DNA from: a virus
Reading direction: 5' to 3' (one strand)
DNA length: 64,000 nucleotides
IMG/VR virus record: IMGVR_UViG_3300029787_000005
Location: 64,319 to 128,318 of that record
Shown: positions 6,465 through 21,715 of the stretch, piece after piece
How positions within the stretch are numbered: the stretch's first letter is position 1
How the letters are laid out: each line of letters starts with the position of its first letter
Program-made: the position numbers and the translations under genes
The notes under the pieces: generated by a model
Seen by the model: the letters and a program-made list of their open reading frames with translations, nothing else
Told to the model about the DNA's origin: nothing
Databases searched by the model: none

Positions 6465-9400
6465 ATGTCTTACTCTAATCGACTTTACGCAAAAGAATAT
6501 GCTGGAGGGGATCGAACCTTTGAGGTTTCGTATACTGGTACTGGTACCAGGACTCCTTACATCGTATACACGAATGCGTTCCATGGATTCTATAATGGAT
6601 TCGAGGGAGTCTATACTAATAGTAGGACATCAACTCTTGCATGGCAAACAAACTTTGCTGGAGCATACACAGCTTCATATGAAGGCTTTGTAAACTATAA
6701 TTCAGACGATACAGATACTTACTCAAAAGCATATACATCATTAAAGAACTTTACTGGTCAATTAGGATACAGAAAAGACTATTCAGCCACAGGTAATCAA
6801 CCAGATAATATCTGGTCTACAATGAACATCTTGGCTAACTACAGTGGTACATATAGTACTGATATTGCATACAGCCGTGTTGTTGGTTATGTTGGCGATG
6901 GAAACTATGATGGTGCAGCATATACAGCTACATGGGTTGGAGAGCTAGCATACACACCAACATATAGTGGATTTGTTGGCTTTGCTTCATATACAAAAAC
7001 ATATGAAGGTTCAACAACATATACCAAAACATACACTAAGACATATGTTGGTAACACAATATACCAAGCTGAGTGGCAGAGAGACTACTTAAAAGCATAT
7101 GGTGGTACAGCAACCTATACAAAAGCGTATACTGTTGATGTAAACTACGACAAAGATTATTCTGCTGGTGCATGGGTAGGAGCAGACAGTTTCGTAGTTT
7201 ATAGTAAAGACTATGGTGGTGCAATAACATATCTTGATTCTACTGGTGCTGGTTTCACAGGGTTTGTTAACTACACCAAGGGTTATCAGGCTACACAATT
7301 CTATACAAAGACATATGTTGGTACAGTAGATTATAACAAAAACTATGTTGGTGCTGCTGATTACACTAAGGCATACACTGGCCGTGCTTCATACATGGCT
7401 GAAGAGAACTTCAATAAAAACTATACAAAAGCATATACAACAGTAGCTGACTTTACAAGAGTGTGGTCTGGTGGCTTGTCATATCTTGGTAACGTAAACT
7501 ATGATGGACTAACATACACAGGCACATATGCTGGTGATACAAACTATCAAACTCTTGTATACTATGTTGGAACATCTGACTATGTTGGTACATATGAAGG
7601 TCTGGCAGACAATTCATATCTTGGTTCTGCATTTGTTGGTGTATATGAAAAAGATTACATTGGTAACTATTTTAGAATATACACTAAGATCTGGCAAAAA
7701 GATTATGTAACAGATTACAACAAGAACTATGTAAAAACTTATACTAAAAGATATGAAAAGTTATATGTTGGTGATTACGTTGCTGCATATCGGACATCAT
7801 ATCACAAAGATTATGATAAAGTCTATTCTAAAATATGGACAAAAGCATACGAAGTTCCATATACCAAGATTTATTCTAAAGATTGGGAAAAGACATATAC
7901 CAAAATCTATACAAAAGTTTGGACAAAAGACTACCTTGAAGATTATGGCAAAGCATGGCTTGGCATATACAACAAAGATTATATCAAACTATACAACAAA
8001 GTATATTCCAAAGATTGGGTTAAAGATTACGGAAAAGCATATGTAGGTCCAGTCTACTATGGAGGATTTGCATCCGGTTCTCAAACAACTGCATACAATA
8101 AAGTTTGGCAGAAAGCATATACAGCTGATTATACAAAAGATTGGGAAAAGGCATATGTCAAATCCTACGAAGGTAGCTTTGATGCAACATATACTAAAAA
8201 CTGGTTAACAGATTATGCAGCAGACTATTCCAAAGACTGGGTTAAAGCATATGCTAAAGACTATGATAAAGTTTGGAATGCTACTTACGAAAAAGATTAT
8301 GGCGCCGACTATACCAAGATATGGACTAAGAACTATGATGAGTCTTGGGCCAAGGAATGGGAAAAAGATTACGGCAAGACATATACAAAAATCTGGACTA
8401 AGATTTGGCAGAAAGATTATGTTACAGATTATGAAAAAGACTATGGTAAGACATATACCACTGACTATCTAAAAGACTATGTTGCAACATACAACAAAGA
8501 TTATGTTGCAAACTATGATCAAATATATCTTAAAAATTGGTCTAAAGACTATGCAGAAGACTATACTAAGATATGGGAAAAAGCATACGATGCAGCTTAT
8601 ACTAAGATATGGGTTGGAACGTATGAGAAAAACTGGGTCAAAGCATACGAGAAAAATTATGTCAAGGCTTACATAAAAGCATATGGTAAGACTTGGGAAA
8701 AAGACTATGTCACAGATTATGATAAAGTCTATACAAAAGCATACAACAAAGGTTATGTCAAAGCATACACTGCTGCATATACTAAGATCTGGAATAGAGA
8801 TTGGGTCAAAGCATATGCTAAGGTTTGGCTTGGTGAGTATACAAAAATTTGGGATAGAAATTGGGAAAAAGACTATTCCAAGGCATATGAAAAAGCATGG
8901 GTTGGTGTATACAGCAAAGACTATGTTACATCTTACCATGTTCCATATGATAACTTTGACACCACTGTTCTATTACTAAATGCTGAAATACCAAATGCAA
9001 CTGATGGTGATGTAGAGTTTATTGATGCATCTGATCAAGGTAACCATGTTACAACTGTACACGGTAGTGCTGCTAAGAGTACAGATCAAAAGAAATTTGG
9101 TTCTGCAGCTATAGAAGTTCCAAGCAGTGGTTCTAGTGGTCTAACAATTAACTTTGCAGATGATGACTTCAACTTTCAAAATGAAGACTTTACAATTGAG
9201 TTTTGGTTAAGAGCTCCTGGTACAAACAATGCTACAATCTTAGAAGCATACGATCATTCTGACAATAGTGTCAAATGGGCTATCAGAGGTAACGATGCAT
9301 CTAGTCCTAGTGAGATAATATTCTACGAAGGAACAACTGCTAGAGTTACAGCAGATGACAATAGTCCTTGGTCATCTGATACATTTAATCATGTTGCAAT

Positions 9401-12400
9401 TGTAAGAATAAGCAACGCAATCAAAGTATACATTAATGGTACAGCTGATGCAGCAACGTATACCTCAGCTGCTAACTTAACTGGAGCCACTAGATTAGTA
9501 ATTGGTAACAGAAGACAATTAGATGCATCTGTTGGTGGTTTCATTGATGACCTTAGAATAGACAAAACCAATGGTAAGTATACTGGTAACTTTAATGTTA
9601 CTGATAATGAGACAGCTCAAGAACAAATAAATTCTGCCGATTGGACATCATTCCAAAAAGCATATGTTAAAACATACAGTGCAGACTATACTAAGATCTG
9701 GGCAAAGGATTATGATAAGACATACGAAGGTGTCTTTGATGCAAGTTATGAAAAAGCATATGATAAAGTATATACAAAGGTATGGGAAAAAGATTACGTC
9801 ACAGATTATACCAAGGTCTGGAATAAGAACTGGGAAAAGGCATACGATAAAGTATACACTAAAGCCTGGGTTGGAGCGTATACTAAAATATATGTAGGTC
9901 CAGTTTACTATGGTGGTTTCGCATCAGGATCACAGACAACAAACTATACCAAAGTTTGGGAAGGTAGCTTTGATGCTGACTATACTAAAATTTGGAACAA
10001 AGATTATGAAAAAGCATACGATAAAATCTATACCAAAAACTGGGTAAAAGCATACGATAAGACATACACTAAAGACTGGGTCAAGGCATATGCTAAGACA
10101 TGGACTGGTGTATATACTAAGATATGGACAAAAGATTACGATAAAGTTTATACTAAAATTTGGAACAAAGACTATGTAAAAGATTACGTCAATGTTTGGG
10201 TTGGTGAATGGGTCAAGAATTGGGTTAAAGATTACGAAGGTTCTTTTGATGCAACATACAACAAAGTTTGGGTGAAAGCATATTCCAAAGACTATGATAA
10301 AGTATATGAAGGTTCTTTTGATGCCACATATGAGAAGGCATACTCTAAAGACTATGATAAGGTCTATGAGACAGATTGGAACAAAGAGTATGTTGAAACA
10401 TATGAAAAAGACTATACTAAGATATGGACTAAGAACTGGGTCAAGAATTATGATACTGAATACGAAAAGCAGTATGATAAAGATTGGGTTAAGGCATACG
10501 AGAAAGATTATGTAGCTGCATATGACAAGAACTGGGATGCAGTCTACAACAAAGATTGGGTCAAAGCCTACGATAAGGTTTATACTAAGTTATGGGCTAA
10601 AGACTATGAAGCTGCTTATACCAAGATTTGGGATAGAGCTTGGGTCAAGAGTTACGATAAAAACTGGGTCAAGACTTATACCAAAGACTGGAACAAAGTA
10701 TATGTTAAGACGTATACTAAAAATTGGGTTAAAAATTACGAGACAGATTACTCAACTGATTACGGTAAGACATATACAAAAGCATATGAAGCTCACTATA
10801 CAAGAGACTTCCTCAAGTTATGGCAAGGTGAGTATACTAAGAACTATGACAAAGACTACTTAAAAGACTATGTCAAAACGTATACTAAAAACTGGGTCAA
10901 AGATTACGAGACTGACTATACTCAAGAGTATCAAGGTACTTACACCAAAGCCTATGAAGGTATCTTTGCAACATTTATCAAATACTATCTCGGTGCTAAA
11001 AACTGGGAAGGTAATATAAACTACACCAAGAACTATACTGGTCTAAGGTATTATGGTAAGGCTTGGGGTACTGAGTATGCAAAAACTTGGACTGGTAACT
11101 ATACTCACGCATACGAAAAAGATTATGTTAAGAACTATGATGCTGACTATACAAAAGATTGGACCGCAACATATACCAAGGCATATGTTAAGAACTATGA
11201 TAAAGTATACACCAAAGTATGGGCTAAAGATTGGACCAAGGCTTATGTTGATGGGTCTGGTGATACCTATACTAAGGTATGGTCAGCAGATTATGCTGCA
11301 GACTATACTAAGGCTTGGAACAAAGATTATGAAAAAGCATACGATAAAGTTTGGAACAAAGTATATACCAAGTCTTGGGAAAAGGGTTACGTTAAGAATT
11401 ATGATAAAGAGTATGTTGCTAACTATACTGGATCGTATGGAGGTGCAGCAGCTTATCTAAAAGCATATGCTGGAACAACTGATTACTCAGGTCCTGTTAA
11501 CTATACTAAGACTTGGGAAGGACCATACATAGCCAGCTTTGCACCATCGTATACTGGTGATAGTGACTTTACACAAAGATATACTGGTGCACTAACAAGG
11601 AATGTTCCTTACGAAGGTACAACAAGTTTTGTAGGTCCTTCTGGTGGTCAGCTTGATTCTAACCTTGCTGGTCAACCTAAACTTCATATTATGCAAGACA
11701 ATACTTGGAAGAATGTCAAGCAATTGTTTGTACATGCATCTGGTCAGTGGAAGAAAGTCAAGTACTTAAATACTAAACAAGGTGATACTTGGAAGCTAGC
11801 ATACATTGGTTACGATACAACTGATATCTTCTTAGATGAAGGTGAAGTTCTTACTAGCGATAGTGATGCAGGTTCAGCTCGAGGTCACGATCTTCATATG
11901 GGTAAGATCACTTACTATGTAAATGACTTCAACTTAAAATCATATCTTGAAGCTAAAGGTAAGACACCAGATACTGTTCCACAATTAGTGAACATATTTG
12001 TTGGTGTAAAAGATGACTATACTAAGAACTTTGTATTTGGTTCTACAGCAAATAATATTCCTGCTGTAAACTTAAATATGGATTCTGTTACAGCTAATGT
12101 TTCAGGAGATACACAAGCAGAGATCAAACACCTTGTACGCATTGTAAACTACACAACTGGATTCATCGTAGGTAAAGGTGGAGATGGTGGTGATGCAAAT
12201 GGAAGCACAAGAGGTCTAGGCAGCCATGGTAGTGATGGTGGTCATGCTATTGAGTCTGGAGCCAATGTACATCTGTTTGTAGAAAACTATGGTACTATTG
12301 GTGGTGGCGGTGGTGGTGGAGGTGCATCTGGTATCTCTGATCCATACAGTAAAGAATCTGGTGTGTACACAACTACATATCTTGGTGACACATATCATGG

Positions 12401-15400
12401 TTCTGGAGTACTTACTGAGTATGGTGCTACGTGGAGTAAAACATATACAAAAGACTGGATTAAAAATTACGTTAAAGTATATGTTGGCGACTACACTAAA
12501 GTATATGAAAAAGATTATTCTGCAGACTATGTTAAGGCATACGTTGGTGTATATAATAAAGACTGGGAAAAGGTATACGTTAAAGAATATGCAGCAGACT
12601 ACACTAAAGTATATGCTAAGGATTGGGAAAAGACATATACTAAAGCATACGAAGGCTCATTTGATGCAACTTATACTAAGACATATACCAAGATATGGGA
12701 AGGTAATTATACCAAAACATATACTAAAAACTATGATAAAGTTTACACAAAAGTATGGGCCAAAGACTTCAGCACAGTATATCAAGGTGAGTATACAAAA
12801 GTATGGTCTAAAGGATATGCAAGAGATTTTGAAGCAGCATTCAATGGTGGCGGTACAGACTATCTAAGAATCTTCTCAAAAGATTACGCCAAAGGATATG
12901 AGGTTGTATACACCGGTGACTACACTAAAGTGTGGTCTACAGACTTCAGCGCTGACTATACTAAATCTTGGGAAAAGGCATACGATAAAGAGTATGTTGG
13001 AGCATACACTAAAGATTATAATAAAGACTATGCAAAGGCTTGGGTTGGAGTATATAATAAAGATTGGGTCAAGGCTTATTCCAAAGATTATACTAAAGTG
13101 TGGACTGGGAACTATCTTAAAGACTATGCTAAGGTATGGGCAAAAGCATATGAAGGATCTTTTGATGGTACTTGGACTAAGGTTTGGACTAAAACATACA
13201 CTAAGATCTGGCAAGGTGCATACGAGAAAGATTATCTCAAAGCATACCAGAAAGTATACAACAAACAATATGATGCAAGTTATACTGAAGCATACCAGAA
13301 AGCATACACTGGACAATTGTATTGGATTGATGAAGACGTAGCATCTTATACTGGAGCTGCTGGAAATTTCACATCTGCTCGAGCATATGGAGATGGTGAA
13401 GTTAGCTTTATCAAAGACTTTAACAAAGAATATGTTTCTGGATTTACTGGCCAGACAGCTTACACTGCAGGAGTACCAGGATCAAGAGGTGAGCTTGGAT
13501 CATTCTCACAAGCAGAGAACTATGATGTTGATTATACTAAACTATATGCATCTCCATATACTAAAGCATACGATAAGATATATGCTAAGGCTTGGGATTC
13601 ATCTGCTGCTAACTATACAGTTAACTGGGAGAAGGCTTGGGTAGAAGATTGGGCTTCAAACTGGGCTGGATCTTTCCATGGTGGTCAGCAAGATGCAATG
13701 ACACCAACAAACTTTATGAAGACTTATCTTCCAGACTCTGGTGTTGCTCTATATGCAAAAGAATATACAAATACAAGATTTGGTCGTACATATGGTGGAT
13801 ATGAATCTGCTGGATTCATTACATCAGTTGGATCATATGCAAAAGCATACACCAAAACATATACTAAGATATGGACTAAATCATATACCAAGGCTTGGGA
13901 AAAAACATATACTAAAGTATACGAGAAAGATTACAACAAAGCATACGATGGTGCTGCATTTGCTAAAGAATGGACTAAGACATATACCAAAACATATGAT
14001 GGTACAATATATGGTGGCGTATATGAAAAAACATATCAAAAAGCATATGACAAAGTATGGCAAGGAAGTTATGTTGATGAGTGGGGTGGAGCATATGATA
14101 AAGAATATGAAGCAGATTATCTTGCAACATATGTTAAGACATACATTGGTATCTATACCAAGACATACGAGAGTGCAGACGATGCATATGTAGGACCTAC
14201 TTATGATGGTGCAACATATACTAAGAGTTGGGAAAAAGCATACTCTGTTGATTACTCAACTGATTGGGAAAAAGCATACACCAAGTCATACGACAAAGAC
14301 TATGAAAAAGCATACGAAGCTGCTTATACAAAAGCATGGTCCAAAGACTATAATAAAGATTATGAAAAAGACTACGAAGGAACTTTCTCTAAGAGTTATG
14401 TTAAGAACTACGATCGTGTATATGTTGGTGATTATACTAAGACTTACGATAAAGATTATTCCAAAGACTATGCTAAGGTATGGAACAGCTCTGCTGCAAC
14501 ATATACAAAAGTATATACTAAGAGTTATGACAAAACATACTCAAGTGATTGGACTAAGTCATATGAGAAGGATTATGTAAAAGATTACACTGGTGCATTT
14601 ACCAAAGCGTATACTAAAACATATACAAAAGATTACTCAGCTGATTACGCTAAAGAATGGACAAAAGCATATACCAAAACATATGATAAAGATTACACTA
14701 AAGCGTATACAAAAATCTATACAAAAGATTATGTCAAAAACTACGATGCAGATTATGTTGGATCATACACTGCAACATTCTCAAGATCATACGATGCAGA
14801 ATACGAAGGATCATATGATAAAGAGTATGAAAAAGCATGGACAAAAATATGGACTAAGGGTTTTGGTTCTACTACATACATTGGTGACTACTCAGCAACA
14901 TATCTTGCTGACTTTACAAAACAATATCAAAAAGACTTTGGTAGCTCATACAGTAGAGACTATAATGCTGAATATGAAGCATCATATACAGGAACATATG
15001 TTGCAACATATGTCAAGACATACTCAAAAGATTGGGTCAAGGCATATGAAGCAGACTACAACAAAGACTATACAGCAGATTATGCTACAACATGGATAAA
15101 AGAATATCTTGGTAACTATAGCAGACCTGGTGGTGTGTATGGTGCATTCCTCAAAGAATACACAGATACATTTGTTAGAGTATACAACACCAAAGGTTCA
15201 TTCATTGGTACATATCTCAAAACATATACCAAGAACTATGATCAATTGTATCAAGGTGTTTATACAAAAGCATATCAAAAGGCATATGAAGGTACATTTA
15301 ACCAAGACTATCTAGTAATATACAACAAAGATTATGCTAAGGCATATGTTGGACCAGTCTTCTACGGTGGTTTTGCTTCTGGCTCACAGACAACAACATA

Positions 15401-15944
15401 CAACAAAGCATATACTAAAGGTTATGAGAAGAACTGGATTAAGACTTACACAGGTATCTTCACTAAAGATTATGAGAAGGCATACACTGGTGACTATACT
15501 AAGTCTTGGACAAAAGACTATGTTAAGACATTTGAAGATACAGCATATTCAAGAGAAGTAAACATTGCATATCTTGGATTTGCAGAGACAACTGGTGTAG
15601 CTGGTTCTGGTGGAGCTGGTTGGAACATTGGTGAAGAAGGTACTACTGAAGCTGATCACAGTCATATGTTATTCCTACCACAAGAAGGTAATCTAATCAA
15701 TGGTGGTAGTCGTGGTGTTCCTGATTGGGAATATGGTAACTCAAGAGCCATTGGTGGTAAAGGTGGAGACTTAGGTAATGTTGGTACCGGTGGTGGTGAA
15801 AGGTTCCTAAGAAAATCAAGACTTGGAAGATCTGGTGATGGTGGTAAACCTGGTGCAGCCATTAAAGGTTATGACTCTGATTATGTTAACATGATCTACC
15901 AGGGTAATATATTAGGTGACCCCAACTACATGTTCCAAGGTTAA
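6465..15944 (+). CDS. Giant Tyr/Trp-x-Lys-x repeat protein (3159 aa) with internal LamG/concanavalin-like domain and glycine-rich adhesin-like core; putative virion fibre/appendage
   Basis: Long 4-residue-period tracts (YTKI-WEKD-YVKA); LamG-like segment about 8955-9600 (DFTIEFW, FNHVAIVR, GFIDDLRI); Gly-rich segments about 12170-12335 and 15594-15870; located among tail-fibre genes. Confidence 0.75.
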   Translation: MSYSNRLYAKEYAGGDRTFEVSYTGTGTRTPYIVYTNAFHGFYNGFEGVYTNSRTSTLAWQTNFAGAYTASYEGFVNYNSDDTDTYSKAYTSLKNFTGQLGYRKDYSATGNQPDNIWSTMNILANYSGTYSTDIAYSRVVGYVGDGNYDGAAYTATWVGELAYTPTYSGFVGFASYTKTYEGSTTYTKTYTKTYVGNTIYQAEWQRDYLKAYGGTATYTKAYTVDVNYDKDYSAGAWVGADSFVVYSKDYGGAITYLDSTGAGFTGFVNYTKGYQATQFYTKTYVGTVDYNKNYVGAADYTKAYTGRASYMAEENFNKNYTKAYTTVADFTRVWSGGLSYLGNVNYDGLTYTGTYAGDTNYQTLVYYVGTSDYVGTYEGLADNSYLGSAFVGVYEKDYIGNYFRIYTKIWQKDYVTDYNKNYVKTYTKRYEKLYVGDYVAAYRTSYHKDYDKVYSKIWTKAYEVPYTKIYSKDWEKTYTKIYTKVWTKDYLEDYGKAWLGIYNKDYIKLYNKVYSKDWVKDYGKAYVGPVYYGGFASGSQTTAYNKVWQKAYTADYTKDWEKAYVKSYEGSFDATYTKNWLTDYAADYSKDWVKAYAKDYDKVWNATYEKDYGADYTKIWTKNYDESWAKEWEKDYGKTYTKIWTKIWQKDYVTDYEKDYGKTYTTDYLKDYVATYNKDYVANYDQIYLKNWSKDYAEDYTKIWEKAYDAAYTKIWVGTYEKNWVKAYEKNYVKAYIKAYGKTWEKDYVTDYDKVYTKAYNKGYVKAYTAAYTKIWNRDWVKAYAKVWLGEYTKIWDRNWEKDYSKAYEKAWVGVYSKDYVTSYHVPYDNFDTTVLLLNAEIPNATDGDVEFIDASDQGNHVTTVHGSAAKSTDQKKFGSAAIEVPSSGSSGLTINFADDDFNFQNEDFTIEFWLRAPGTNNATILEAYDHSDNSVKWAIRGNDASSPSEIIFYEGTTARVTADDNSPWSSDTFNHVAIVRISNAIKVYINGTADAATYTSAANLTGATRLVIGNRRQLDASVGGFIDDLRIDKTNGKYTGNFNVTDNETAQEQINSADWTSFQKAYVKTYSADYTKIWAKDYDKTYEGVFDASYEKAYDKVYTKVWEKDYVTDYTKVWNKNWEKAYDKVYTKAWVGAYTKIYVGPVYYGGFASGSQTTNYTKVWEGSFDADYTKIWNKDYEKAYDKIYTKNWVKAYDKTYTKDWVKAYAKTWTGVYTKIWTKDYDKVYTKIWNKDYVKDYVNVWVGEWVKNWVKDYEGSFDATYNKVWVKAYSKDYDKVYEGSFDATYEKAYSKDYDKVYETDWNKEYVETYEKDYTKIWTKNWVKNYDTEYEKQYDKDWVKAYEKDYVAAYDKNWDAVYNKDWVKAYDKVYTKLWAKDYEAAYTKIWDRAWVKSYDKNWVKTYTKDWNKVYVKTYTKNWVKNYETDYSTDYGKTYTKAYEAHYTRDFLKLWQGEYTKNYDKDYLKDYVKTYTKNWVKDYETDYTQEYQGTYTKAYEGIFATFIKYYLGAKNWEGNINYTKNYTGLRYYGKAWGTEYAKTWTGNYTHAYEKDYVKNYDADYTKDWTATYTKAYVKNYDKVYTKVWAKDWTKAYVDGSGDTYTKVWSADYAADYTKAWNKDYEKAYDKVWNKVYTKSWEKGYVKNYDKEYVANYTGSYGGAAAYLKAYAGTTDYSGPVNYTKTWEGPYIASFAPSYTGDSDFTQRYTGALTRNVPYEGTTSFVGPSGGQLDSNLAGQPKLHIMQDNTWKNVKQLFVHASGQWKKVKYLNTKQGDTWKLAYIGYDTTDIFLDEGEVLTSDSDAGSARGHDLHMGKITYYVNDFNLKSYLEAKGKTPDTVPQLVNIFVGVKDDYTKNFVFGSTANNIPAVNLNMDSVTANVSGDTQAEIKHLVRIVNYTTGFIVGKGGDGGDANGSTRGLGSHGSDGGHAIESGANVHLFVENYGTIGGGGGGGGASGISDPYSKESGVYTTTYLGDTYHGSGVLTEYGATWSKTYTKDWIKNYVKVYVGDYTKVYEKDYSADYVKAYVGVYNKDWEKVYVKEYAADYTKVYAKDWEKTYTKAYEGSFDATYTKTYTKIWEGNYTKTYTKNYDKVYTKVWAKDFSTVYQGEYTKVWSKGYARDFEAAFNGGGTDYLRIFSKDYAKGYEVVYTGDYTKVWSTDFSADYTKSWEKAYDKEYVGAYTKDYNKDYAKAWVGVYNKDWVKAYSKDYTKVWTGNYLKDYAKVWAKAYEGSFDGTWTKVWTKTYTKIWQGAYEKDYLKAYQKVYNKQYDASYTEAYQKAYTGQLYWIDEDVASYTGAAGNFTSARAYGDGEVSFIKDFNKEYVSGFTGQTAYTAGVPGSRGELGSFSQAENYDVDYTKLYASPYTKAYDKIYAKAWDSSAANYTVNWEKAWVEDWASNWAGSFHGGQQDAMTPTNFMKTYLPDSGVALYAKEYTNTRFGRTYGGYESAGFITSVGSYAKAYTKTYTKIWTKSYTKAWEKTYTKVYEKDYNKAYDGAAFAKEWTKTYTKTYDGTIYGGVYEKTYQKAYDKVWQGSYVDEWGGAYDKEYEADYLATYVKTYIGIYTKTYESADDAYVGPTYDGATYTKSWEKAYSVDYSTDWEKAYTKSYDKDYEKAYEAAYTKAWSKDYNKDYEKDYEGTFSKSYVKNYDRVYVGDYTKTYDKDYSKDYAKVWNSSAATYTKVYTKSYDKTYSSDWTKSYEKDYVKDYTGAFTKAYTKTYTKDYSADYAKEWTKAYTKTYDKDYTKAYTKIYTKDYVKNYDADYVGSYTATFSRSYDAEYEGSYDKEYEKAWTKIWTKGFGSTTYIGDYSATYLADFTKQYQKDFGSSYSRDYNAEYEASYTGTYVATYVKTYSKDWVKAYEADYNKDYTADYATTWIKEYLGNYSRPGGVYGAFLKEYTDTFVRVYNTKGSFIGTYLKTYTKNYDQLYQGVYTKAYQKAYEGTFNQDYLVIYNKDYAKAYVGPVFYGGFASGSQTTTYNKAYTKGYEKNWIKTYTGIFTKDYEKAYTGDYTKSWTKDYVKTFEDTAYSREVNIAYLGFAETTGVAGSGGAGWNIGEEGTTEADHSHMLFLPQEGNLINGGSRGVPDWEYGNSRAIGGKGGDLGNVGTGGGERFLRKSRLGRSGDGGKPGAAIKGYDSDYVNMIYQGNILGDPNYMFQG
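7632..15575 (+). repeat. Degenerate 12-bp-period coding repeat ([YW]-x-K-x)n in several blocks
   Basis: Recurring units such as tatactaagata, tgggaaaaagat, tatgttaaagca; interrupted by the LamG domain and the Gly-rich core. Confidence 0.9.
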
Positions 15945-15950
15945 GGTGTC

Positions 15951-18900
15951 ATGGGACGGCCCCTTAAAATTAAAACCTCTGGAGGTGGAACATGGATAGC
16001 TCTACAAGAGATACCAGATACAGAATTAACCCACATAGTCCATCAAGTTCTTACAGAGTTTGCATCTAGTACTTCTGGTACTGGAACACTTTCTGTTGGA
16101 ACAGATACTGGAACAAGTATTGGTACATTTACAGATACCAATTCATCAACAAGTTCCACAACTACTGTTTATCAAAATTTAACGTCCGTGTCAGAATCAA
16201 GTATGGTCCGCCCCGTGGAGTTCGGTTCAACTATTCAAGAGGCATCTGATGCAAACATTAATTCGTTCATCATTAGCACTGCTCTTTCTAATCTTGTGTC
16301 TAACGGAATTGGGTCTTATGTCCTGTCAACAACAAATCCTGACTCAGATAGATACACTGCTATAACACCAGCGCTAACTGATAACACAACGAGTACTTCT
16401 ACAAGTTATAATTTATACAGAAAAACATCTGTTGCAACTGCACCAGCTCAAGTAATACCATTAAAGGTTACTGGTAGTACAGTTAAACAGATGACTAATA
16501 CAGAGATCAAAACTCTCACAGCAAGAGTAAGAAATAGAATCATTGACACAGGAATTGGTAAGTATGCTATTCAAGCAGCTGCACCATCTACTGGTACATG
16601 GGTTGATCAAGGAACAATACTTGATACAAAGATCATTGATTCTGATAGCGATTCCTATTCAAGGACTTACTTAAAAACATACACTAAAGCATTTGCAAAG
16701 AATTATCTCAAGACATACACTGGAACATTTGTTGGACAGTATGTTGGTACATATGAGAAAGATTATCAAAAAGCATATACCAGTGCAATAAACTATGAGA
16801 AGATATACACTACAGTTTGGACTAAGTCATATAGTAAAGACTTTATTGGTGTGTATCAAGGTGTAGTCAACTTCAATAGAACATTTGAAGGTGACTTTGC
16901 AAAAGATTGGATCAAGTCTTACAGTAAAGCATACACTGGCTTTATACTATATGCAAAAGATTATGATCAAACATTCACAGGAAACTTTCATAAAGACTAT
17001 CTCAAGGGATATGTTGGTGAGAGAAACTATCTAGCAGAGTATGCAAGAGATTGGAACAAAACATACACCAAGTTATATACTGGTGAATATCAAAAGACAG
17101 AAAACTTTGAAGTTAATTATGAAGGTGAAAGAGTTGTAAACTACAATGCAACCTTTGCTGCTTTCTACGAAGGTGAGATAACTTCAGCTGCAACATATGT
17201 CAAAGCATATGTAAAAGATTTTGGAAATGATTATGCTGCTTCATTCTCAGCTGCTGCAAACTATTCTGGTACATTCAACAGAACATACACGAAAGATTAT
17301 GGTAGAGCATGGACTGTTGAGTTTTCAGGTCCTGGTGTATTCCAATCTGAATGGACTAAAAACTATACAGTAAACTATCAAAAGGCTTATGCAAAGCTCT
17401 GGACAAAAGATTGGGTAAAGCAATATATTGTTCAGTATGAAAAGTTATATGAAAAGAGTTGGTTGGAAGATTGGGTCAAGGCTTACGAGAAAGACTATGA
17501 AGCAGCATATGATAAAGATTGGATTAAAAACTGGGTCAAATCATATTCAAAAGATTGGAATAAAGATTATTCTGCTGACTATCTAAAAGACTATGGTAAG
17601 ACATATACTACTGATTACAACAAAGATTATATCACCAACTACGAGAAAACATATGTGAAGGCATACGTTGGTGTATACAATAAAGACTATATCAAAGCAT
17701 ACGAGAAAGATTGGGTTACAGACTATACTCACAATTGGGTCAAAGCATATCTAAAGGTATGGAACAAAGACTATGTCAAAGGTTATGAGATTGCATGGAA
17801 CAAAGTATGGTTAGGTATCTATACTAAAGACTGGTCAAAAGACTATGAAAAAATATATGTAAAGAATTGGGTAAAATCATATGATGCGGACTACGCAAAA
17901 CAATGGCTTGGTGAGTATGAAAAAAATTATGTCAAGTCTTATGACAAAGATTATGTTAAGGCATACGATCGCATCTGGTCACAAACGTACACAAAAATCT
18001 ACGATGCAGCATACACAAAGATCTGGGCCAAGGACTGGGAAAAAGATTACGTAAAGATATATCAAAAGAACTACGTTAAAACATATAGTGCTGCATATGA
18101 AGGATCGTTTGATGAAAACTATAACAAAGATTATGTAGCTGCATATACAAAGATATGGAACAAGACTTATACTAAGATCTGGCAGAAAGACTATGTCACA
18201 GATTACACAAAGACATACACAACAGATTATAATAAAGACTATACAAAAATTTATGCTAAGGCTTGGGTTGGTGCATATACAAAAATATATGTTGGGCCTG
18301 TGTACTACGGTGGTTTTGCATCTGGATCTCAAACTACAAACTACACAAAAGTTTGGGAAGGTAGCTTTGGTGCCAACTATACAAAGGTATGGGTAAAGAC
18401 ATATACCAAAGATTGGAACAAAGCATATACCAAGAACTGGATAAAAAACTATGATGCTGATTATGTAAAAGCATATGATAAGATATACGAAAAGGCTTGG
18501 GTCAAGACTTATACTAAAGCATATGTTGGTGTTTACAATAAGGATTGGAACAAAGATTACGTTAAGGATTATTCCAAAAATTGGGTTAAAGCATATACTA
18601 AGAATTACGATAAAGTATATAACAAAGATTGGTCTAAAGATTGGAACGTTGATTACGTTGCAGTGTATCTAAAGAATTGGGTTAAGACATACGACAAAGA
18701 TTATGTTAAAGCATATGAAGGTGCCTTTGATGCAACCTACACAAAGATATGGAATAAAGATTATCTAAAAGACTATGCTAAGTTGTGGGCTAAGGATTAT
18801 GATAAAGAGTATGAAGGATCTTTTGATGCTGCATATGTTAAACAATATGCAAAGAACTGGGTAAAGGCTTATGAGGCTAGTTACGAGAAAGACTACGAAG

Positions 18901-20042
18901 CAGCATATACAAAGAACTGGGTTACACAATACGAGAAGAACTATGTCAAATCATACGAAGGATCATTTGATGCTGACTGGGTAAAGGCTTATACAAAAAA
19001 TTGGGTTAAGACATATACAACTGATTGGAACAAAACTTATACCAAGACTTATACTAAGTTGTGGACCAAGACATATACAACTGAGTATGAAAAGGACTAT
19101 GTTAAAAATTATGTTGCAAGATATCTTACAAACTGGGTAAAGACTTATGAAAAAGCATACGAGAAGTCCTACGCAAAAACTTATGAAAGAATATGGACAA
19201 AAATTTGGGAGAAAGCATATACTCGCAACTACTCCGCCACATACCTCAAAGACTATACCAAGGTATGGTCACGGGATTATGAAGGCAATTATACTGGTTT
19301 CATCAATTACACTGGACAATTTATTTCAAACTACCTCAAAGACTACGTTGGACAAGTAACAAAAACATTTTCTGGCTTTATTAATTACAATAAACTGTTT
19401 ACTAAGAGCTGGGGTCGGATGTATAATAAAGAATATGTCAACGAATGGGCTAAGGTTCAAAACTTCCAAAAAGACTTTGAAAAAGATTTTGCTAAAGAAT
19501 ACGTAGGTGTGTATACTAAAACATACTCATCTATTCATACGTATGAAGGAACAAGAACTGTAGACTATCAGAAAACATATACAGCAGATTATACAAAAGA
19601 GTATGCAGCAGACATAACCTATGTCAAGACTTATACAGCTACACGCTCTCAAGGATTTGAAGGAGCATATGAAAAAACATATAGTAGTGAGACAGACTAT
19701 GAAAAAGACTACGATAAAGAATATGAAGCTGTATATAATAGTAACTTTGGTAGCATTAACTTTTCTGCTACACTCAATTTTGAAAAGGCTTGGACTAAGA
19801 ACTTTGCAAAATTTTATGATGCAGAATATGCGAAGAACTACGAAGGATATATAGACTACACACAAGACTACAATAAGGCTTATGAAGGAACTTTCACAGG
19901 ATACTTTGAGACAGACTTCATAAAAACTTATTCAATAGATTATTCAAACGACTATATTAAGAGCTATATAAATACATATGTAGATACAACCAACTATGTG
20001 GGAACCGCATCTACACTTAAATTATGGGTGAGGGTTGCTTAA
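15951..20042 (+). CDS. Second Tyr/Trp-x-Lys-x repeat protein (1363 aa); small N-terminal domain followed by a mirror-symmetric repeat region
   Basis: Residues 1-235 are non-repetitive and Ser/Thr-rich; residues 236-1349 have an aromatic nearly every 4th position; central GPVYYGGFASGSQTT; ends in LKLWVRVA. Confidence 0.75.
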   Translation: MGRPLKIKTSGGGTWIALQEIPDTELTHIVHQVLTEFASSTSGTGTLSVGTDTGTSIGTFTDTNSSTSSTTTVYQNLTSVSESSMVRPVEFGSTIQEASDANINSFIISTALSNLVSNGIGSYVLSTTNPDSDRYTAITPALTDNTTSTSTSYNLYRKTSVATAPAQVIPLKVTGSTVKQMTNTEIKTLTARVRNRIIDTGIGKYAIQAAAPSTGTWVDQGTILDTKIIDSDSDSYSRTYLKTYTKAFAKNYLKTYTGTFVGQYVGTYEKDYQKAYTSAINYEKIYTTVWTKSYSKDFIGVYQGVVNFNRTFEGDFAKDWIKSYSKAYTGFILYAKDYDQTFTGNFHKDYLKGYVGERNYLAEYARDWNKTYTKLYTGEYQKTENFEVNYEGERVVNYNATFAAFYEGEITSAATYVKAYVKDFGNDYAASFSAAANYSGTFNRTYTKDYGRAWTVEFSGPGVFQSEWTKNYTVNYQKAYAKLWTKDWVKQYIVQYEKLYEKSWLEDWVKAYEKDYEAAYDKDWIKNWVKSYSKDWNKDYSADYLKDYGKTYTTDYNKDYITNYEKTYVKAYVGVYNKDYIKAYEKDWVTDYTHNWVKAYLKVWNKDYVKGYEIAWNKVWLGIYTKDWSKDYEKIYVKNWVKSYDADYAKQWLGEYEKNYVKSYDKDYVKAYDRIWSQTYTKIYDAAYTKIWAKDWEKDYVKIYQKNYVKTYSAAYEGSFDENYNKDYVAAYTKIWNKTYTKIWQKDYVTDYTKTYTTDYNKDYTKIYAKAWVGAYTKIYVGPVYYGGFASGSQTTNYTKVWEGSFGANYTKVWVKTYTKDWNKAYTKNWIKNYDADYVKAYDKIYEKAWVKTYTKAYVGVYNKDWNKDYVKDYSKNWVKAYTKNYDKVYNKDWSKDWNVDYVAVYLKNWVKTYDKDYVKAYEGAFDATYTKIWNKDYLKDYAKLWAKDYDKEYEGSFDAAYVKQYAKNWVKAYEASYEKDYEAAYTKNWVTQYEKNYVKSYEGSFDADWVKAYTKNWVKTYTTDWNKTYTKTYTKLWTKTYTTEYEKDYVKNYVARYLTNWVKTYEKAYEKSYAKTYERIWTKIWEKAYTRNYSATYLKDYTKVWSRDYEGNYTGFINYTGQFISNYLKDYVGQVTKTFSGFINYNKLFTKSWGRMYNKEYVNEWAKVQNFQKDFEKDFAKEYVGVYTKTYSSIHTYEGTRTVDYQKTYTADYTKEYAADITYVKTYTATRSQGFEGAYEKTYSSETDYEKDYDKEYEAVYNSNFGSINFSATLNFEKAWTKNFAKFYDAEYAKNYEGYIDYTQDYNKAYEGTFTGYFETDFIKTYSIDYSNDYIKSYINTYVDTTNYVGTASTLKLWVRVA
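16656..19997 (+). repeat. Tetrapeptide-period coding repeat with 26-residue super-period on both flanks
   Basis: Aromatic spacing 4,4,4,4,4,6 repeated on both outer arms; uninterrupted 4-period from F464 to Y780 and from Y798 to Y1114. Confidence 0.9.
19967..19974 (+). promoter_or_regulatory. T4-type late promoter TATAAATA
   Basis: Exact consensus about 80 nt upstream of the 20053 start. Confidence 0.6.
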
Positions 20043-20052
20043 GGAGTATATA

Positions 20053-20850
20053 ATGAGTAGTGAAGAAGTAATGGATATTGATCCTAGAGCCCATGGCTTT
20101 AAGATTGATACGGCCGGTAAGGTCGCTAGCTCAGAAGCAGAGTTAGCAAACAAAAGAATAGATGCTAAAATTCCAGAGTTTGAAGAAGAAATAGATCATG
20201 ACATTCCTCATGACAAGGAAGAAGTGGTTGAAGAAGTTTACAAAGAAAGTCTCAGTAAAGATCGTTCAGACCGACTAGGGTTGGTCAGACCTCCAGATAA
20301 GAATATGAAAACATCATGGATGCGTGATCCTGTCGAGGCAGATGATATGGAGGAGATCAAATTGGCAGAAGAAAAAGCTAGGGAACCTGAATGGCCTTTT
20401 GGTGATGGTGAACCAATATATGCATTCTTTAGTAATGATGCAAGGACAGTACTTACATTCTTTCTAAGAATGCCAGATGATAGAGTTGAGAATCATACTA
20501 TAGACTCAGCTCCTATGCATGAAGCTGCATGGCATCATCTACGAAAAATCTTCACAGAAGAAATGTTGAATAAGAATACTAGTCGAGAGATCAATAAGAT
20601 TCATAGACTGCGTTCCAAAGAAGAAGATGAAGAAAAAGAACGTGAAAGTAAGATGAAGCAAGAAGGGTTGTTCGGTGCTAAAGTTGAGGCATTTGAACTG
20701 GAAGTTGTTAGTAAGTCTACTAATAGAGATTTGAAATCAGCTATCCGTAAATCAAAATCTACTATGGAAGTTATTGCCACTGTAGGTGCTCTCATTGCTC
20801 TTGATCATTTGGAGTCTAAAAAAGAAGATGTCCCAGCAGCAGCCGAATAA
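20053..20850 (+). CDS. Hypothetical acidic protein (possible fibre assembly factor)
   Basis: ATG at 20053 preceded by AAGGAG; lies between the repeat proteins and the glycosyltransferase-like gene. Confidence 0.6.
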   Translation: MSSEEVMDIDPRAHGFKIDTAGKVASSEAELANKRIDAKIPEFEEEIDHDIPHDKEEVVEEVYKESLSKDRSDRLGLVRPPDKNMKTSWMRDPVEADDMEEIKLAEEKAREPEWPFGDGEPIYAFFSNDARTVLTFFLRMPDDRVENHTIDSAPMHEAAWHHLRKIFTEEMLNKNTSREINKIHRLRSKEEDEEKERESKMKQEGLFGAKVEAFELEVVSKSTNRDLKSAIRKSKSTMEVIATVGALIALDHLESKKEDVPAAAE

Positions 20851-21715
20851 TGGTTTTCTGTACGTAGGATCTCTGACTAAACCATATTATGATGCTGCTG
20901 TAATGTCAGCAGAGTCCATTAAGGACTACTGGCCAGAAGCTAAGATAATGTTGTTTACTCATGAAGATTGGGTACAAGAACCAAGAGACTCTAGAATCTT
21001 TGATAAAATTGTTACTGGAGTCCCAGCACATTGTCGAGCTAAGCTATGGGCATTAAATCAAACTATATTTGATAAGACATGCTATATGGATGCTGACACA
21101 TATTGTGAGCATGAAGACATAAAGTATATCTTTGATGATCTACCTGATAACTATGATATGGCTATGACTACAAATAGACCATATAATGCTAAGGTTGTCT
21201 ACTTTAAGAAAGATAGAGAGCTTACTCATTATGAAGAAGAAGACAAGAAGTTAATCTGGGAAGGTGGGGACCCAGATGGCAAACCATTGTATGCAGTGCA
21301 CTCTTGGGAAGAGAATGCCAAGAATGAAGTATACAGAATGTTATGGCATTGTGGAATGTTTATATATAATAATAAGCCGCATACGCTAAAAATGTTACAT
21401 GCATGGTATACTAATTATAGGGAACAGATTGAAAACAAAAAGACATGGCACGAAAGATTTGAACATCCAAGATCATTGTGGTTCTGGGATACGTATGCTT
21501 TCTGGCGAACAAACTTTTATACAAATTATGAAGTCAAGATTCGTGAGATCCATCCAAAGTGGAACTTTGTAAATGGATACAGAGAATTTGAATTAAGTGA
21601 AAAACATCCAAAAGTTATTCACCACTACACAGTACCAGCTCGACCACAGGATGAAGGATTAATAGATGACCCCAATATATCAAATACAATCGGAAATTTT
21701 GACATACTTAAATGA
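20828..21715 (+). CDS. Putative glycosyltransferase (GT-A fold, nucleotide-diphospho-sugar transferase-like)
   Basis: RAKLWAL..T.FDKTCYMDADT with DxD motif; ...KWNFV...IHHY C-terminus reminiscent of GT8-like proteins. Confidence 0.6.
   Translation: MSQQQPNNGFLYVGSLTKPYYDAAVMSAESIKDYWPEAKIMLFTHEDWVQEPRDSRIFDKIVTGVPAHCRAKLWALNQTIFDKTCYMDADTYCEHEDIKYIFDDLPDNYDMAMTTNRPYNAKVVYFKKDRELTHYEEEDKKLIWEGGDPDGKPLYAVHSWEENAKNEVYRMLWHCGMFIYNNKPHTLKMLHAWYTNYREQIENKKTWHERFEHPRSLWFWDTYAFWRTNFYTNYEVKIREIHPKWNFVNGYREFELSEKHPKVIHHYTVPARPQDEGLIDDPNISNTIGNFDILK

What the first reader, a model, noticed from the sequence alone, without database searches (positions are those of the whole stretch)
16656..19997. Mirror-symmetric repeat protein: probable single antiparallel hairpin of about 550 residues per arm
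Seen by counting the translation: the repeat region runs from Y236 to Y1349 and is centred on F789 of GPVYYGGFASGSQTT, flanked by Y780 and Y798 (sum 1578). The aromatic-every-4 register is unbroken for exactly 316 residues on each side (F464-Y780 and Y798-Y1114). Further out, 6-residue stutters occur at mirror positions: 458-464/1114-1120, 432-438/1140-1146, about 406-412/1166-1172, 380-386/1192-1198, 354-360/1218-1224, 328-334/1244-1250, 302-308/1271-1277 and 276-282/1297-1303 (one residue inserted in the C arm). The register then ends at 236/1343. The arms are not sequence copies, and the symmetry is in the protein register rather than a DNA inverted repeat. Inference: the arms pair antiparallel into a two-stranded ribbon with the motif as its tip, and the terminal LKLWVRVA strand returns to the N-terminal domain. 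At about 3.3 A per residue it would be up to about 180 nm if fully extended. I know of no described phage fibre built this way.
Basis: partly seen in the sequence, partly recalled or inferred. Interest (0 to 1): 0.95.

Follow-up and report, generated by a model that had tools for sequence, protein, structure and literature searches.

The report
Giant beta-hairpin phage fibre protein
A marine cyanophage gene encodes a 1,363-residue protein whose two halves appear to zip together, head to tail, into one very long two-stranded ribbon, a way of building a virus fibre that has not been described.

Summary
ORF 15951-20042 (1363 aa) has an aromatic residue every 4th position for 79 steps on each side of GPVYYGGFASGSQTT. 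It also has eight 26-residue stutters per arm at mirror positions.

Spacing alone cannot separate mirror from translational order, because the stutters are periodic. Residue-level signals can:
- All 5 "Ar-E-G-S/A-F" motifs sit opposite an "Ar-h-G-h-Ar" motif at i+j=1578 (p about 3e-7).
- Trp-Trp neighbours are almost absent at i+j=1578 and 1582 (1 and 0, expected 6 each). This is the only such dip in 160 parallel and antiparallel offsets.
- A diverged orthologue has 78/78 steps and shows the dip at its own shifted offset.
- The neighbouring 3159-aa protein shows the same rules at four further hairpins, one with register kept across a looped-out 231-residue domain.

The protein belongs to a large unannotated phage family of 278 to 3347 aa. 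AlphaFold2 on a 513-aa member gives a confident N-domain plus two long basal strands.

Best reading: an intrachain antiparallel beta-ribbon about 180 nm long. Oligomeric state and function remain open. An 89-residue one-arm insertion in two relatives is the main counter-example. The scan has not noted this on other DNA.

The parts
15951..20042 (+). Whole ORF, 1363 aa (P0001): N-domain, N arm, tip, C arm, C-terminal strand.
   Evidence: Four full-length orthologues (52-95% identical) and one cut off by its contig end, all on other IMG/VR contigs.
15951..16655 (+). N-terminal globular domain, residues 1-235. It defines the family and is the probable virion-proximal anchor.
   Evidence: phmmer against 1.84 billion representatives gave 304 hits at E<=1e-3 and 206 at E<=1e-10. 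No Pfam family. AlphaFold2 on the relative P0026 gives pLDDT about 97 for this domain. The best structural matches are beta-prism domains (MABP, MACPF C-terminal) at Z 6.0-6.5, which is a weak level.
16656..17339 (+). Proximal N arm, residues 236-463: aromatic every 4 with a 6-residue stutter every 26 residues.
17340..18290 (+). Distal N arm, residues 464-780: 79 unbroken steps of [Y/W/F]-x-K-x.
   Evidence: Composition by position: pos1 Y55 W22 F2; pos3 K54 of 79. No Pro in the arms except P461.
18291..18341 (+). Hairpin tip, residues 781-797, holding GPVYYGGFASGSQTT.
   Evidence: 94-100% identical in the four full-length orthologues, while the arms fall to 46-49% in L007. The same motif occurs three times in the neighbouring protein.
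18342..19292 (+). Distal C arm, residues 798-1114: 79 unbroken steps, paired with 464-780 in register i+j=1578-1582.
19293..19979 (+). Proximal C arm, residues 1115-1343, with eight stutters mirroring those of the N arm.
19980..20042 (+). C-terminal tail, residues 1344-1363, ending LKLWVRVA, plus the stop codon. The ending is conserved in the family and is predicted to rejoin the N-domain.
6465..15944 (+). Neighbouring 3159-aa protein (P0002), built of the same repeat. It has at least four hairpins: tips at residues 528-542, 1145-1159, about 2127-2132 and 2963-2977. A 231-residue LamG-like domain is looped out of one arm (residues 829-1062, window 8949-9650), and a gp38-like adhesin domain is present.

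Best explanation
P0001 is a structural fibre or appendage protein of a T4-like cyanophage (Kyanoviridae-like). Residues 236-780 and 798-1343 of one chain run antiparallel and pair residue by residue, with register i+j about 1580 in the distal 316 residues. Together they form one continuous two-stranded beta-ribbon hairpin of about 545 residues per arm, or about 180 nm at 3.3 A per residue.

Geometry (inferred):
- The conserved GPVYYGGFASGSQTT segment is the turn.
- The base is the 235-residue N-terminal domain, which the C-terminal LKLWVRVA strand rejoins.
- The 4-residue code [Y/W]-x-K-x puts aromatics and lysines on one face. In register 1580 each aromatic faces a lysine and has two aromatic diagonal neighbours, which are rarely both Trp.
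- The other face carries cross-strand V/I pairs between acidic and polar residues.
- Occasional 'Ar-E-G-S-F-D' motifs opposite 'Ar-h-G-h-Ar' motifs act as register locks.

Status of each step:
- Shown: the mirror order, the anti-diagonal residue correlations, their replication in an orthologue and in the neighbouring gene, and family membership.
- Inferred: beta conformation along the whole arm, intrachain rather than interchain pairing, the length, and the anchoring role of the N-domain.
- Guess: the function. I propose a long thin filament near the baseplate for first, weak, multivalent contact with host or particle surfaces.
For: 1. Observation verified; permutation z 8.5, 0 of 300.

2. Glycine lock. 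5 of 5 EG[SA]F motifs in P0001 have G exactly at 1578-i inside an Ar-h-G-h-Ar motif. 5 of 5 pos-3 glycines of the N arm are matched to 5 of 6 in the C arm, p 2.7e-7. Other antiparallel offsets give at most 1 match and parallel offsets at most 2.

3. Trp-Trp pairs: 1 of 80 at i+j=1578 and 0 of 79 at 1582, flanked by 10 of 79 and 10 of 78; about 6 expected. 0 of 20,000 shuffles reach this. It is the only strong dip among 160 offset pairs, parallel ones included.

4. Hydrophobic pairs on the other face: 21 at i+j=1580. This ranks 1 of 98 in-phase antiparallel offsets, and the pairs occur in all four quarters of the arm (3, 5, 6, 7 against about 1.2 expected each). Acid-acid pairs are depleted at 1576 and 1578 (3 and 5 against 12 expected).

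5. Orthologue L007.
   - Arms 46-49% identical; Trp positions overlap only at chance level (6 of 22/20 in the N arm, 6 of 22/16 in the C arm).
   - Steps are 78/78 and all eight stutter pairs are mirrored at sum 1570/1571.
   - The Trp dip lies at 1570/1574 (2 and 0; p 0.002).

6. P0002.
   - The best Trp-avoidance offset equals the motif-predicted one for motif 1 (best of 67 offsets) and for motif 2 (best of 71).
   - For runs 544-828 against 1161-1501, the best of 122 offsets is 2073/2077. This equals 2304 minus 231, which is exact register continuity across the looped-out LamG-like domain.
   - A fourth hairpin has 5 of 5 glycine pairs.
   - 7 of 8 EGxF motifs have a G partner.
   - Several different dyads in one chain can only be intrachain hairpins.

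7. Family and model. The N-domain and the C-terminal ending are both conserved. AlphaFold2 on P0026 with 141 sequences gives the N-domain at pLDDT about 97 and strands 234-263 and 474-511 at the base.

8. No Pro in the arms except P461, no Cys, and high Y/W/V/T content.
Against: - No experiment exists, and no confident model of the arms. AlphaFold2 gave pLDDT below 50 for residues 265-473 of P0026. For the tip-centred fragment of P0001 without an alignment it gave helices at pLDDT 32, which is not informative.
- L005 and L006 carry an 89-residue insertion at the base of the N arm only, so the arms are 633 against 545 residues. I could not show that the insert is a self-contained side hairpin.
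- Across the family, aromatic spacing does not favour mirror over translation: 79 against 64, with 71 ties, of 214 (p 0.24). The common GSR stutter motif has the same orientation in both halves.
- The hydrophobic-pair measure has an equally high parallel peak (shift 270: 18 pairs), so by itself it does not discriminate.
- In L007 the glycine match (5 of 14) is not above controls (up to 4). Its Trp dip ranks only 2 of 78.
- In P0002 motif 1 has only one G-G pair, and residues 544-680 seem to be paired on both edges. Two-stranded ribbons are therefore not the whole story.
- The outer arms of P0001 give no residue-level signal.
Confidence: 0.72

Rival explanations
1. The hairpins exist but are not free ribbons. 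Three (or another number of) chains bundle, so that the free strand edges pair between chains and form a closed multi-stranded needle. This would resemble the six-stranded needle at the tip of T4 gp37, but be more than ten times longer. It refines the best explanation rather than contradicting it.
For: - Phage fibres are as a rule trimers (general knowledge; the RBPseg abstract in the listing and the passages of PMC12143355).
- The edges of a two-stranded ribbon are otherwise unsatisfied.
- In P0002, residues 544-680 show pairing signatures on both edges, so these strands can take a second partner.
Against: - Neither face looks like a buried core. One is aromatic plus 69% Lys; the other has about a quarter Asp/Glu.
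- No second antiparallel register with a Trp dip appears in P0001 among 80 offset pairs.
- P0001 has no His-x-His metal sites.
Confidence: 0.35
2. The antiparallel pairing is between two chains, as a head-to-tail dimer or polymer, and not within one chain. The filament would then be fully extended, with an N-domain at each end.
For: Mirror order and anti-diagonal correlations cannot by themselves tell intrachain from interchain antiparallel pairing.
Against: - P0002 has at least four different dyads in one chain, three of them at the same turn motif as P0001. A single dimer axis cannot produce that.
- The Gly/Pro-rich motif sits exactly at the centre.
- Family members with arms of about 25 residues have a short palindromic Gly-rich centre.
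- AlphaFold2 places the C-terminal strand of P0026 with its own N-domain at pLDDT 83-98.
Confidence: 0.07
3. There is no hairpin. The arms adopt another repetitive fold, such as a beta-solenoid, a triple beta-helix or a helical rod. The symmetry would then be a by-product of how the repeat array grew outwards from a central seed.
For: - Family-wide spacing statistics do not prefer mirror to translation.
- Repeat arrays do expand by local duplication, and the degenerate direct DNA repeats fit that.
- Single-sequence AlphaFold2 drew helices, at pLDDT 32.
Against: - 316 residues with only a 4-residue period and no turn-forming positions cannot make solenoid coils.
- Growth history does not explain Trp avoidance and glycine pairing at one exact anti-diagonal offset, nor their re-appearance at the shifted offset in L007 despite different Trp positions.
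- It also does not explain register continuity across the LamG-like insertion in P0002.
Confidence: 0.08

Closest known systems
Needle domain of the T4 long tail fibre tip (gp37). The structure by Bartual et al. 2010, PDB 2XGF, is recalled. A passage of PMC6957217 was seen.
   Same: It is a phage fibre in which the chain runs out to a distal tip and folds back, so that N-side and C-side segments lie antiparallel along the fibre axis. The tip can carry a small head domain, as the central domains do in many family members here.
   Different: - The gp37 needle is about 50 residues per arm in an obligate trimer, held by seven iron ions on His-x-His motifs (passage).
- P0001 has about 545 residues per arm, no His-x-His and a strict 4-residue aromatic/Lys code.
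- There is no sequence, Pfam or PDB match.
- The oligomeric state here is unknown.
Short two-stranded beta-ribbon stalks and designed aromatic zippers: the bovine ultralong CDR-H3 stalk-and-knob and tryptophan-zipper hairpins (both recalled, not searched).
   Same: Each is a solvent-exposed antiparallel two-stranded ribbon, stabilised by cross-strand aromatic ladders, that can hold a knob at its end.
   Different: Those are 6-20 residues per strand and are not repeat-encoded. The ribbon here is 25 to about 545 residues per strand, with a sequence code and register-lock motifs.
Thrombospondin type-1 repeat cation-pi ladder (recalled).
   Same: It is an elongated, thin, layered stack of aromatic and basic side chains on one face of an antiparallel structure.
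   Different: The thrombospondin repeat is a 60-residue, three-stranded, disulfide-bonded domain with W-x-x-W and Arg. P0001 has no Cys and no W-x-x-W, uses Lys, and has two strands.
Triple beta-helix and triple beta-spiral fibre shafts (T4 gp5/gp12, adenovirus fibre) and beta-solenoids (recalled).
   Same: They are repeat-encoded beta-structured shafts of viral fibres.
   Different: Those have repeats of 8-22 residues with turns, parallel intertwined chains, and N and C termini at opposite ends. Here the period is 4, the arms have no turns, and both termini lie at the same end.

Membership tests
Unnamed phage family defined here (N-domain + aromatic-x-(G/K)-x arms + C-terminal strand) | Homologous N-terminal domain of about 235-260 residues | tested here: met
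   phmmer with residues 1-240 gave 304 proteins at E<=1e-3 and 18 at E<=1e-30. A search with the relative P0026 gave 1190 proteins at E<=1e-10.
Unnamed phage family defined here (N-domain + aromatic-x-(G/K)-x arms + C-terminal strand) | C-terminal ending T-x-L-[W/Y]-x-[R/K]-x-x | tested here: met
   P0001 ends LKLWVRVA. The 3347-aa protein of phage C48C1 also has it.
Unnamed phage family defined here (N-domain + aromatic-x-(G/K)-x arms + C-terminal strand) | Two arms with an aromatic every 4th residue, flanking a turn or a central domain | tested here: met
   P0001 uses Lys where most members use Gly.
T4 gp37-type fold-back needle | The chain folds back at the distal tip, with antiparallel N-side and C-side segments | tested here: met
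   Inferred from anti-diagonal residue correlations, not from a structure.
T4 gp37-type fold-back needle | His-x-His motifs binding iron along the axis | tested here: not met
   5 His in 1363 residues and no H-x-H.
T4 gp37-type fold-back needle | Homotrimer | tested here: inconclusive
   The one complex job gave no verdict.
T4 gp37-type fold-back needle | Sequence or profile similarity to gp37 or to other fibre families | tested here: not met
   No Pfam family at E<=1. Only phrog_15773 (unknown function) at E 1.5e-4. No PDB sequence match at E<=1.
Beta-solenoid / triple beta-helix shafts | Repeat long enough to make a coil (8 residues or more) with turn positions, and parallel i to i+n contacts | tested here: not met
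   Only a 4-residue period for 316 residues per arm, with no Pro or Gly periodicity. The best parallel Trp-avoidance offset has p 0.056, against 6.8e-5 for the antiparallel one.
Collagen-like phage fibres | Gly-x-y triplets | tested here: not met
   The period is 4 and Gly is rare in the arms (7 per 317 residues).
MABP / MACPF-associated beta-prism (N-domain only) | Structural similarity of the domain | tested here: inconclusive
   Z 6.0-6.5, 110-116 residues aligned, rmsd 3.5-3.8 A, on the P0026 model. This is below the level at which unrelated folds commonly score. Foldseek found nothing at E<=1e-3 in PDB or BFVD.

The most novel reading that the evidence does not exclude
These phages use a previously unrecognised class of fibrous protein architecture: a sequence-coded two-stranded beta-ribbon, with the repeat aromatic-x-Lys/Gly-x. 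Its arms can be lengthened from about 25 to about 545 residues. It behaves like nucleic-acid secondary structure, with stems, conserved tetraloop-like tips, register locks, looped-out domains and multi-hairpin proteins. P0001 would be the longest beta-hairpin known, a free filament about 180 nm long and about 1-2 nm thick that carries a continuous aromatic-lysine checkerboard.
Probability: 0.4. Interest if true: 0.92.

Novelty: categorically new. Interest (0 to 1): 0.85.

Why it matters
- If the reading holds, it adds a new way of making long thin protein filaments to the short list of coiled coil, collagen, beta-spiral, beta-helix and cross-beta.
- The sequence code is simple, and the length can be tuned by adding 4-residue units to both arms. 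That is of interest for protein design and nanomaterials.
- It would give a fold and a domain plan to a large, unannotated family of marine phage proteins: at least 1190 members at E<=1e-10 in one search.
- It would give a rule for reading giant 'low-complexity' phage proteins such as the 3159-aa neighbour: which segments pair, which domains are looped out, and which end is distal.
- It makes testable how T4-like cyanophages, whose fibre genes are poorly understood, reach their hosts.

Tried and rejected
- AlphaFold2 on the tip-centred fragment of P0001 (residues 700-880) without an alignment gave pLDDT 32 and drew helices. It is not usable.
- Complex prediction with three copies of the 314-aa family member P0245 and alignment A2 gave no verdict (score 0.00). 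This is evidence neither way.
- Foldseek on the P0026 model found nothing at E<=1e-3 in PDB or BFVD. The PDB sequence searches found nothing relevant. The ESM Atlas returned only unnamed viral clusters.
- The gapped mirror alignment of aromatic patterns was no more sensitive than the rigid test: 10 of 56 at 0 of 200 shuffles, and mirror above forward in 33 of 56.
- Mirror against translation of aromatic spacing across 214 complete members showed no difference.
- Reversed tripeptide motifs in the two halves showed no mirror asymmetry (r +0.38; GSR 45 against 62, RSG 5 against 0).
- Change-point detection of N-arm-like against C-arm-like composition was inconclusive. 27 of 134 proteins passed my periodicity filter, and only 9 of those 27 had the change point at 0.4-0.6 of the arm region.
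- Hydrophobic pairing turned out not to discriminate antiparallel from parallel in a wide scan.
- tblastn of the N-domain against 50,697 phage records found no match. The relatives P0111 and P0245, and whole P0001, matched only phage C48C1.
- Pfam at E<=5 on the three downstream ORFs gave only sub-threshold hits. The 'modification enzymes' idea of another first-reader note was therefore not confirmed.
- Seven literature searches found no description of this family or of such a repeat. I saw only listings, plus passages of PMC1079782, PMC6957217 and PMC12143355. Supplementary files were not consulted.
- I rejected a collagen-like reading (period 4, not 3) and a DNA palindrome (0 inverted repeats).

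Full report
CONTEXT. The window is part of a 128-kb IMG/VR virus record. It carries T4-type terminase, sheath, portal, scaffold and major head genes and a PstS-like phosphate-binding protein. G+C is about 36%. The only related record among 50,697 phage genomes is phage C48C1, classed in Kyanoviridae. The finding lies in ORF 15951-20042 (+), 1363 aa, here called P0001. Upstream on the same strand are a DUF4815/phrog_358 baseplate-type protein, a 219-aa fibre stub with an S74 chaperone domain, and a 3159-aa protein (P0002) with a gp38-adhesin-like stretch. P0001 has no Pfam family at E<=1, and its only PHROG is one of unknown function.

THE OBSERVATION. There are 79 unbroken steps of 4 from F464 to Y780 and 79 from Y798 to Y1114. 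The motif GPVYYGGFASGSQTT lies at 782-796. Eight stutters 26 residues apart lie on each arm, at positions summing to 1578 and, after a one-residue insertion, 1579. At i+j=1578, 83% of arm aromatics face an aromatic, against 44% when the same spacings are permuted (0 of 300 permutations). The DNA has no inverted repeat, and its direct repeats are old (60-86% identity).

A NECESSARY CAUTION. A periodic stutter pattern is both mirror-symmetric and translation-symmetric. In the proximal 250 residues the mirror and forward alignments score the same (200 against 200). Across 214 complete family members mirror beats translation only 79 times against 64, with 71 ties (p 0.24). The common stutter motif GSR points the same way in both halves. 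Spacing statistics alone therefore do not prove a hairpin. This holds although they are significant against permutation in 11 of 56 members (0 of 300) and in 52 of 114 (0 of 200). Also, the centre of a uniformly periodic block is trivially its midpoint. What is specific to a mirror in P0001 is the ABBA order of the segments, the whole-arm score of 112 against 70 of 136, and the residue-level tests that follow.

RESIDUE-LEVEL TESTS IN P0001.

(a) Glycine lock.
- The strict arms hold 7 glycines each. Five pairs sum to exactly 1578: 574/1004, 622/956, 654/924, 718/860 and 774/804. Every other antiparallel offset gives at most 1 pair and every parallel offset at most 2.
- Counting only the Lys position of the repeat, 5 of 5 N-arm glycines meet 5 of the 6 C-arm glycines among 79 sites, p 2.7e-7.
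- The pairs are always one 'Ar-E-G-S/A-F-D' motif opposite one 'Ar-V/L-G-V/I/A/E-Ar' motif (5 of 5).

(b) Tryptophan avoidance.
- Each arm has 22 Trp among 80 aromatic sites.
- Trp-Trp pairs number 1 at i+j=1578 and 0 at 1582, flanked by 10 at 1574 and 10 at 1586; about 6 are expected.
- No shuffle of 20,000 reaches this.
- Among 80 antiparallel and 80 parallel pairs of adjacent offsets this is the only strong dip (Poisson 6.8e-5; next best 0.056).
- The dip is centred on 1580. This suggests that the residue directly opposite an aromatic is the Lys at 1580-i, and that the aromatics at 1578-i and 1582-i are its two diagonal neighbours.

(c) The other face.
- V/I/L/M pairs number 21 at i+j=1580, which ranks 1 of 98 in-phase antiparallel offsets. 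They occur in all four quarters of the arm (3, 5, 6 and 7).
- Acid-acid pairs are depleted at 1576 and 1578.
- This measure is weaker than (a) and (b). A parallel shift of 270 gives 18 pairs, because the hydrophobic positions are quasi-periodic.

ORTHOLOGUES. Five close relatives were found on other IMG/VR contigs.
- L003 and L004 (95% and 88% identical) keep the same plan.
- L007 has an N-domain 86% identical and a tip 94% identical, but arms only 46-49% identical. Its strict runs are 78 and 78 steps, and all eight stutter pairs are mirrored at sums 1570/1571.
- The Trp positions of L007 coincide with those of P0001 only at chance level. Even so, Trp-Trp pairs are 2 at 1570 and 0 at 1574 (shuffle p 0.002). 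In a blind scan this ranks 2 of 78. Its glycine matches (5 of 14) do not exceed controls.
- L005, and L006 which is cut off by its contig end, keep 79/79 steps and eight stutter pairs. They carry 89 extra residues near the base of the N arm only. I could not show that this insert is a side hairpin. It is a real exception to 'equal arms', although it lies next to the N-domain and leaves the rest of the register untouched.

THE NEIGHBOURING GENE AS AN INDEPENDENT TEST. P0002 has the same repeat and three copies of the same turn motif, at residues 528, 1145 and 2963. Its strict runs on either side of those motifs are unequal, which at first looks like a refutation. A scan for Trp avoidance between all strict runs resolves this.
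- For runs 406/544 the best offset is the one predicted by motif 1 (sum 1070; best of 67).
- For runs 1063/1161 the best offset is the one predicted by motif 2 (sum 2304; best of 71).
- For runs 544/1161 the best of 122 offsets is 2073/2077 (2 and 0 pairs against 10.3 expected). This equals 2304 minus 231. The left arm of hairpin 2 therefore continues in exact register on the far side of the 231-residue LamG-like domain (residues 829-1062), which is looped out.
- With that domain removed, the arms of hairpin 2 are about 364 and 370 residues.
- A fourth hairpin (tip FNGGGTDY near 2127-2132, sum 4259) has 5 of 5 register glycines paired.
- 7 of 8 EGxF motifs in P0002 have a glycine at the predicted partner position.
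- Several dyads in one chain require intrachain hairpins.
- Residues 544-680 seem to be paired on both edges, so parts of P0002 may be three-stranded.
- The scan made 3152 tests, and none of the P0002 offsets would survive correction on its own. Their weight comes from coinciding with offsets predicted beforehand.

THE FAMILY.
- The N-domain alone finds 304 proteins. The 513-aa relative P0026 finds 1190 at E<=1e-10. All are unnamed or 'hypothetical', and the Atlas clusters are viral.
- Members share the N-domain and the ending T-x-L-[W/Y]-x-R-x-A. Between these lie two aromatic-every-4 arms, mostly Y-x-G-x.
- The arms flank either a short Gly-rich, often palindromic centre (arms of about 25 residues in 313-aa members) or non-repeat central domains.
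- Lengths run from 278 to 2316 aa among the proteins held, and to 3347 aa in C48C1.
- AlphaFold2 on P0026 with 141 aligned sequences gives the N-domain at pLDDT about 97, long strands 234-263 and 474-511, and a C-terminus at pLDDT 83-98. Residues 265-473 are below 50.
- Structural alignment to beta-prism domains (Z 6.0-6.5, weak) spans model residues 42..513. The C-terminal strand is therefore modelled as part of the N-domain. I could not inspect the coordinates.

HOW IT MOST LIKELY WORKS.
- Shown: two segments of about 545 residues have correlated residues on one anti-diagonal.
- Inferred: they form a continuous antiparallel two-stranded beta-ribbon. The conserved motif is the turn, and the base is clamped by the N-domain and the C-terminal strand. 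At 3.3 A per residue the ribbon is about 180 nm long.
- One face is an aromatic/Lys checkerboard. The other carries V/I cross-strand pairs between Asp, Glu, Asn and Thr. The EGSF/hGh pairs may set the register during folding.
- The proximal 228 residues, with their 26-residue super-period, may have a different twist or partners. They gave no residue-level signal.
- The N-domain and the tip are conserved, and the arms are the most variable part. Together with the family's conserved N-terminus, this suggests that the N-domain anchors the protein to the virion, as in other fibres.
- The role of a filament without a distal domain is a guess. I favour weak multivalent contact with polysaccharide or cell surfaces.
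- Neither face looks like a buried core, which favours an exposed ribbon. Lateral bundling (for example a trimer) is not excluded.

COMPARISON WITH WHAT IS KNOWN.
- The nearest precedent in phages is the fold-back needle of T4 gp37 (recalled; one passage). It is about 50 residues per arm, trimeric and iron-bound. P0001 lacks the defining His-x-His sites and any sequence relation.
- Short beta-ribbon stalks, tryptophan zippers and the thrombospondin cation-pi ladder (all recalled) share single principles but not the scale, the repeat code or the modular hairpin grammar.
- The 16 tail-fibre classes of the RBPseg atlas include none described with the words 'hairpin' or 'antiparallel' in the main text (0 occurrences).
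- Seven literature searches found no description.

VERDICT. The hairpin interpretation is supported by tests that could have failed, in this gene, in an orthologue and in the neighbouring gene. Still open are experimental proof, the conformation of the proximal arms, the oligomeric state, the meaning of the one-arm insertion in L005/L006, and the function. The scan's own index holds notes on this only from the same genome.

Noticed in passing
window 6465-15944 (+), P0002: The 3159-aa neighbour reads as a multi-hairpin protein. Its tips lie at residues 528-542, 1145-1159, about 2127-2132 and 2963-2977. A 231-residue LamG-like domain (residues 829-1062) is looped out of one arm without loss of register. 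Residues 544-680 appear to be paired on both edges. The pairing partners of residues 3-390, 1531-1720 and 2281-2917 were not worked out.
   Followed up: partly
window 6465-15944 (+), residues 1868-1959 and the C-terminal 130 residues: Pfam GP38 (phage tail fibre adhesin) matches residues 1868-1959 (E 1e-7). Another first-reader note says the Gly-rich adhesin domain resumes only at the C-terminus, after about 1070 residues of repeat. That would fit a domain carrying a looped-out hairpin array. I did not test it.
   Followed up: no
L005 10001-14359 and L006 3508-5520 (IMG/VR relatives): These orthologues have an 89-residue insertion at the base of the N arm only (between P0001 residues 237 and 253). 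It holds a possible turn, YVGDTGTY, but shows no clean internal mirror.
   Followed up: partly
window 20035-22439 (+), three ORFs of 271, 309 and 257 aa: These ORFs have no PHROG and no Pfam family at E<=1e-3. There are only sub-threshold hits, for example Glycos_transf_2 at E 0.3 for the middle ORF. Another first-reader note proposes a glycosyltransferase and a hydroxylase that modify the repeat lysines. This remains unconfirmed.
   Followed up: partly
window 5498-6157 (+): A 219-aa protein consists of little more than a fibre C-terminus with an S74 intramolecular-chaperone domain (Pfam E 5e-13). It matches the ends of many long tail fibre PHROGs.
   Followed up: no
L001 11722-21765 (phage C48C1, OQ984149.1): A 3347-aa 'hypothetical protein' has the family N-domain and the family ending TYTLYVRVA, with many spacing-4 runs, one of 69 steps. 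It was the only match to this family that my four tblastn queries found among 50,697 deposited phage genomes.
   Followed up: partly
window 22852-23841 (-): A PstS-like periplasmic phosphate-binding protein (PBP_like_2, E 5e-42) is present. It is a host-like auxiliary gene typical of marine cyanophages.
   Followed up: no
family members P0166, P0245: In Gly-type members some stutters and tips are palindromic at the protein level. Examples are N-R-S-G in one arm opposite G-S-R-N in the other in P0166, and the tip FFAGSIGGFF in P0245. This is what a local two-fold axis of a hairpin would favour. It is not general, since GSR occurs in both halves family-wide.
   Followed up: partly
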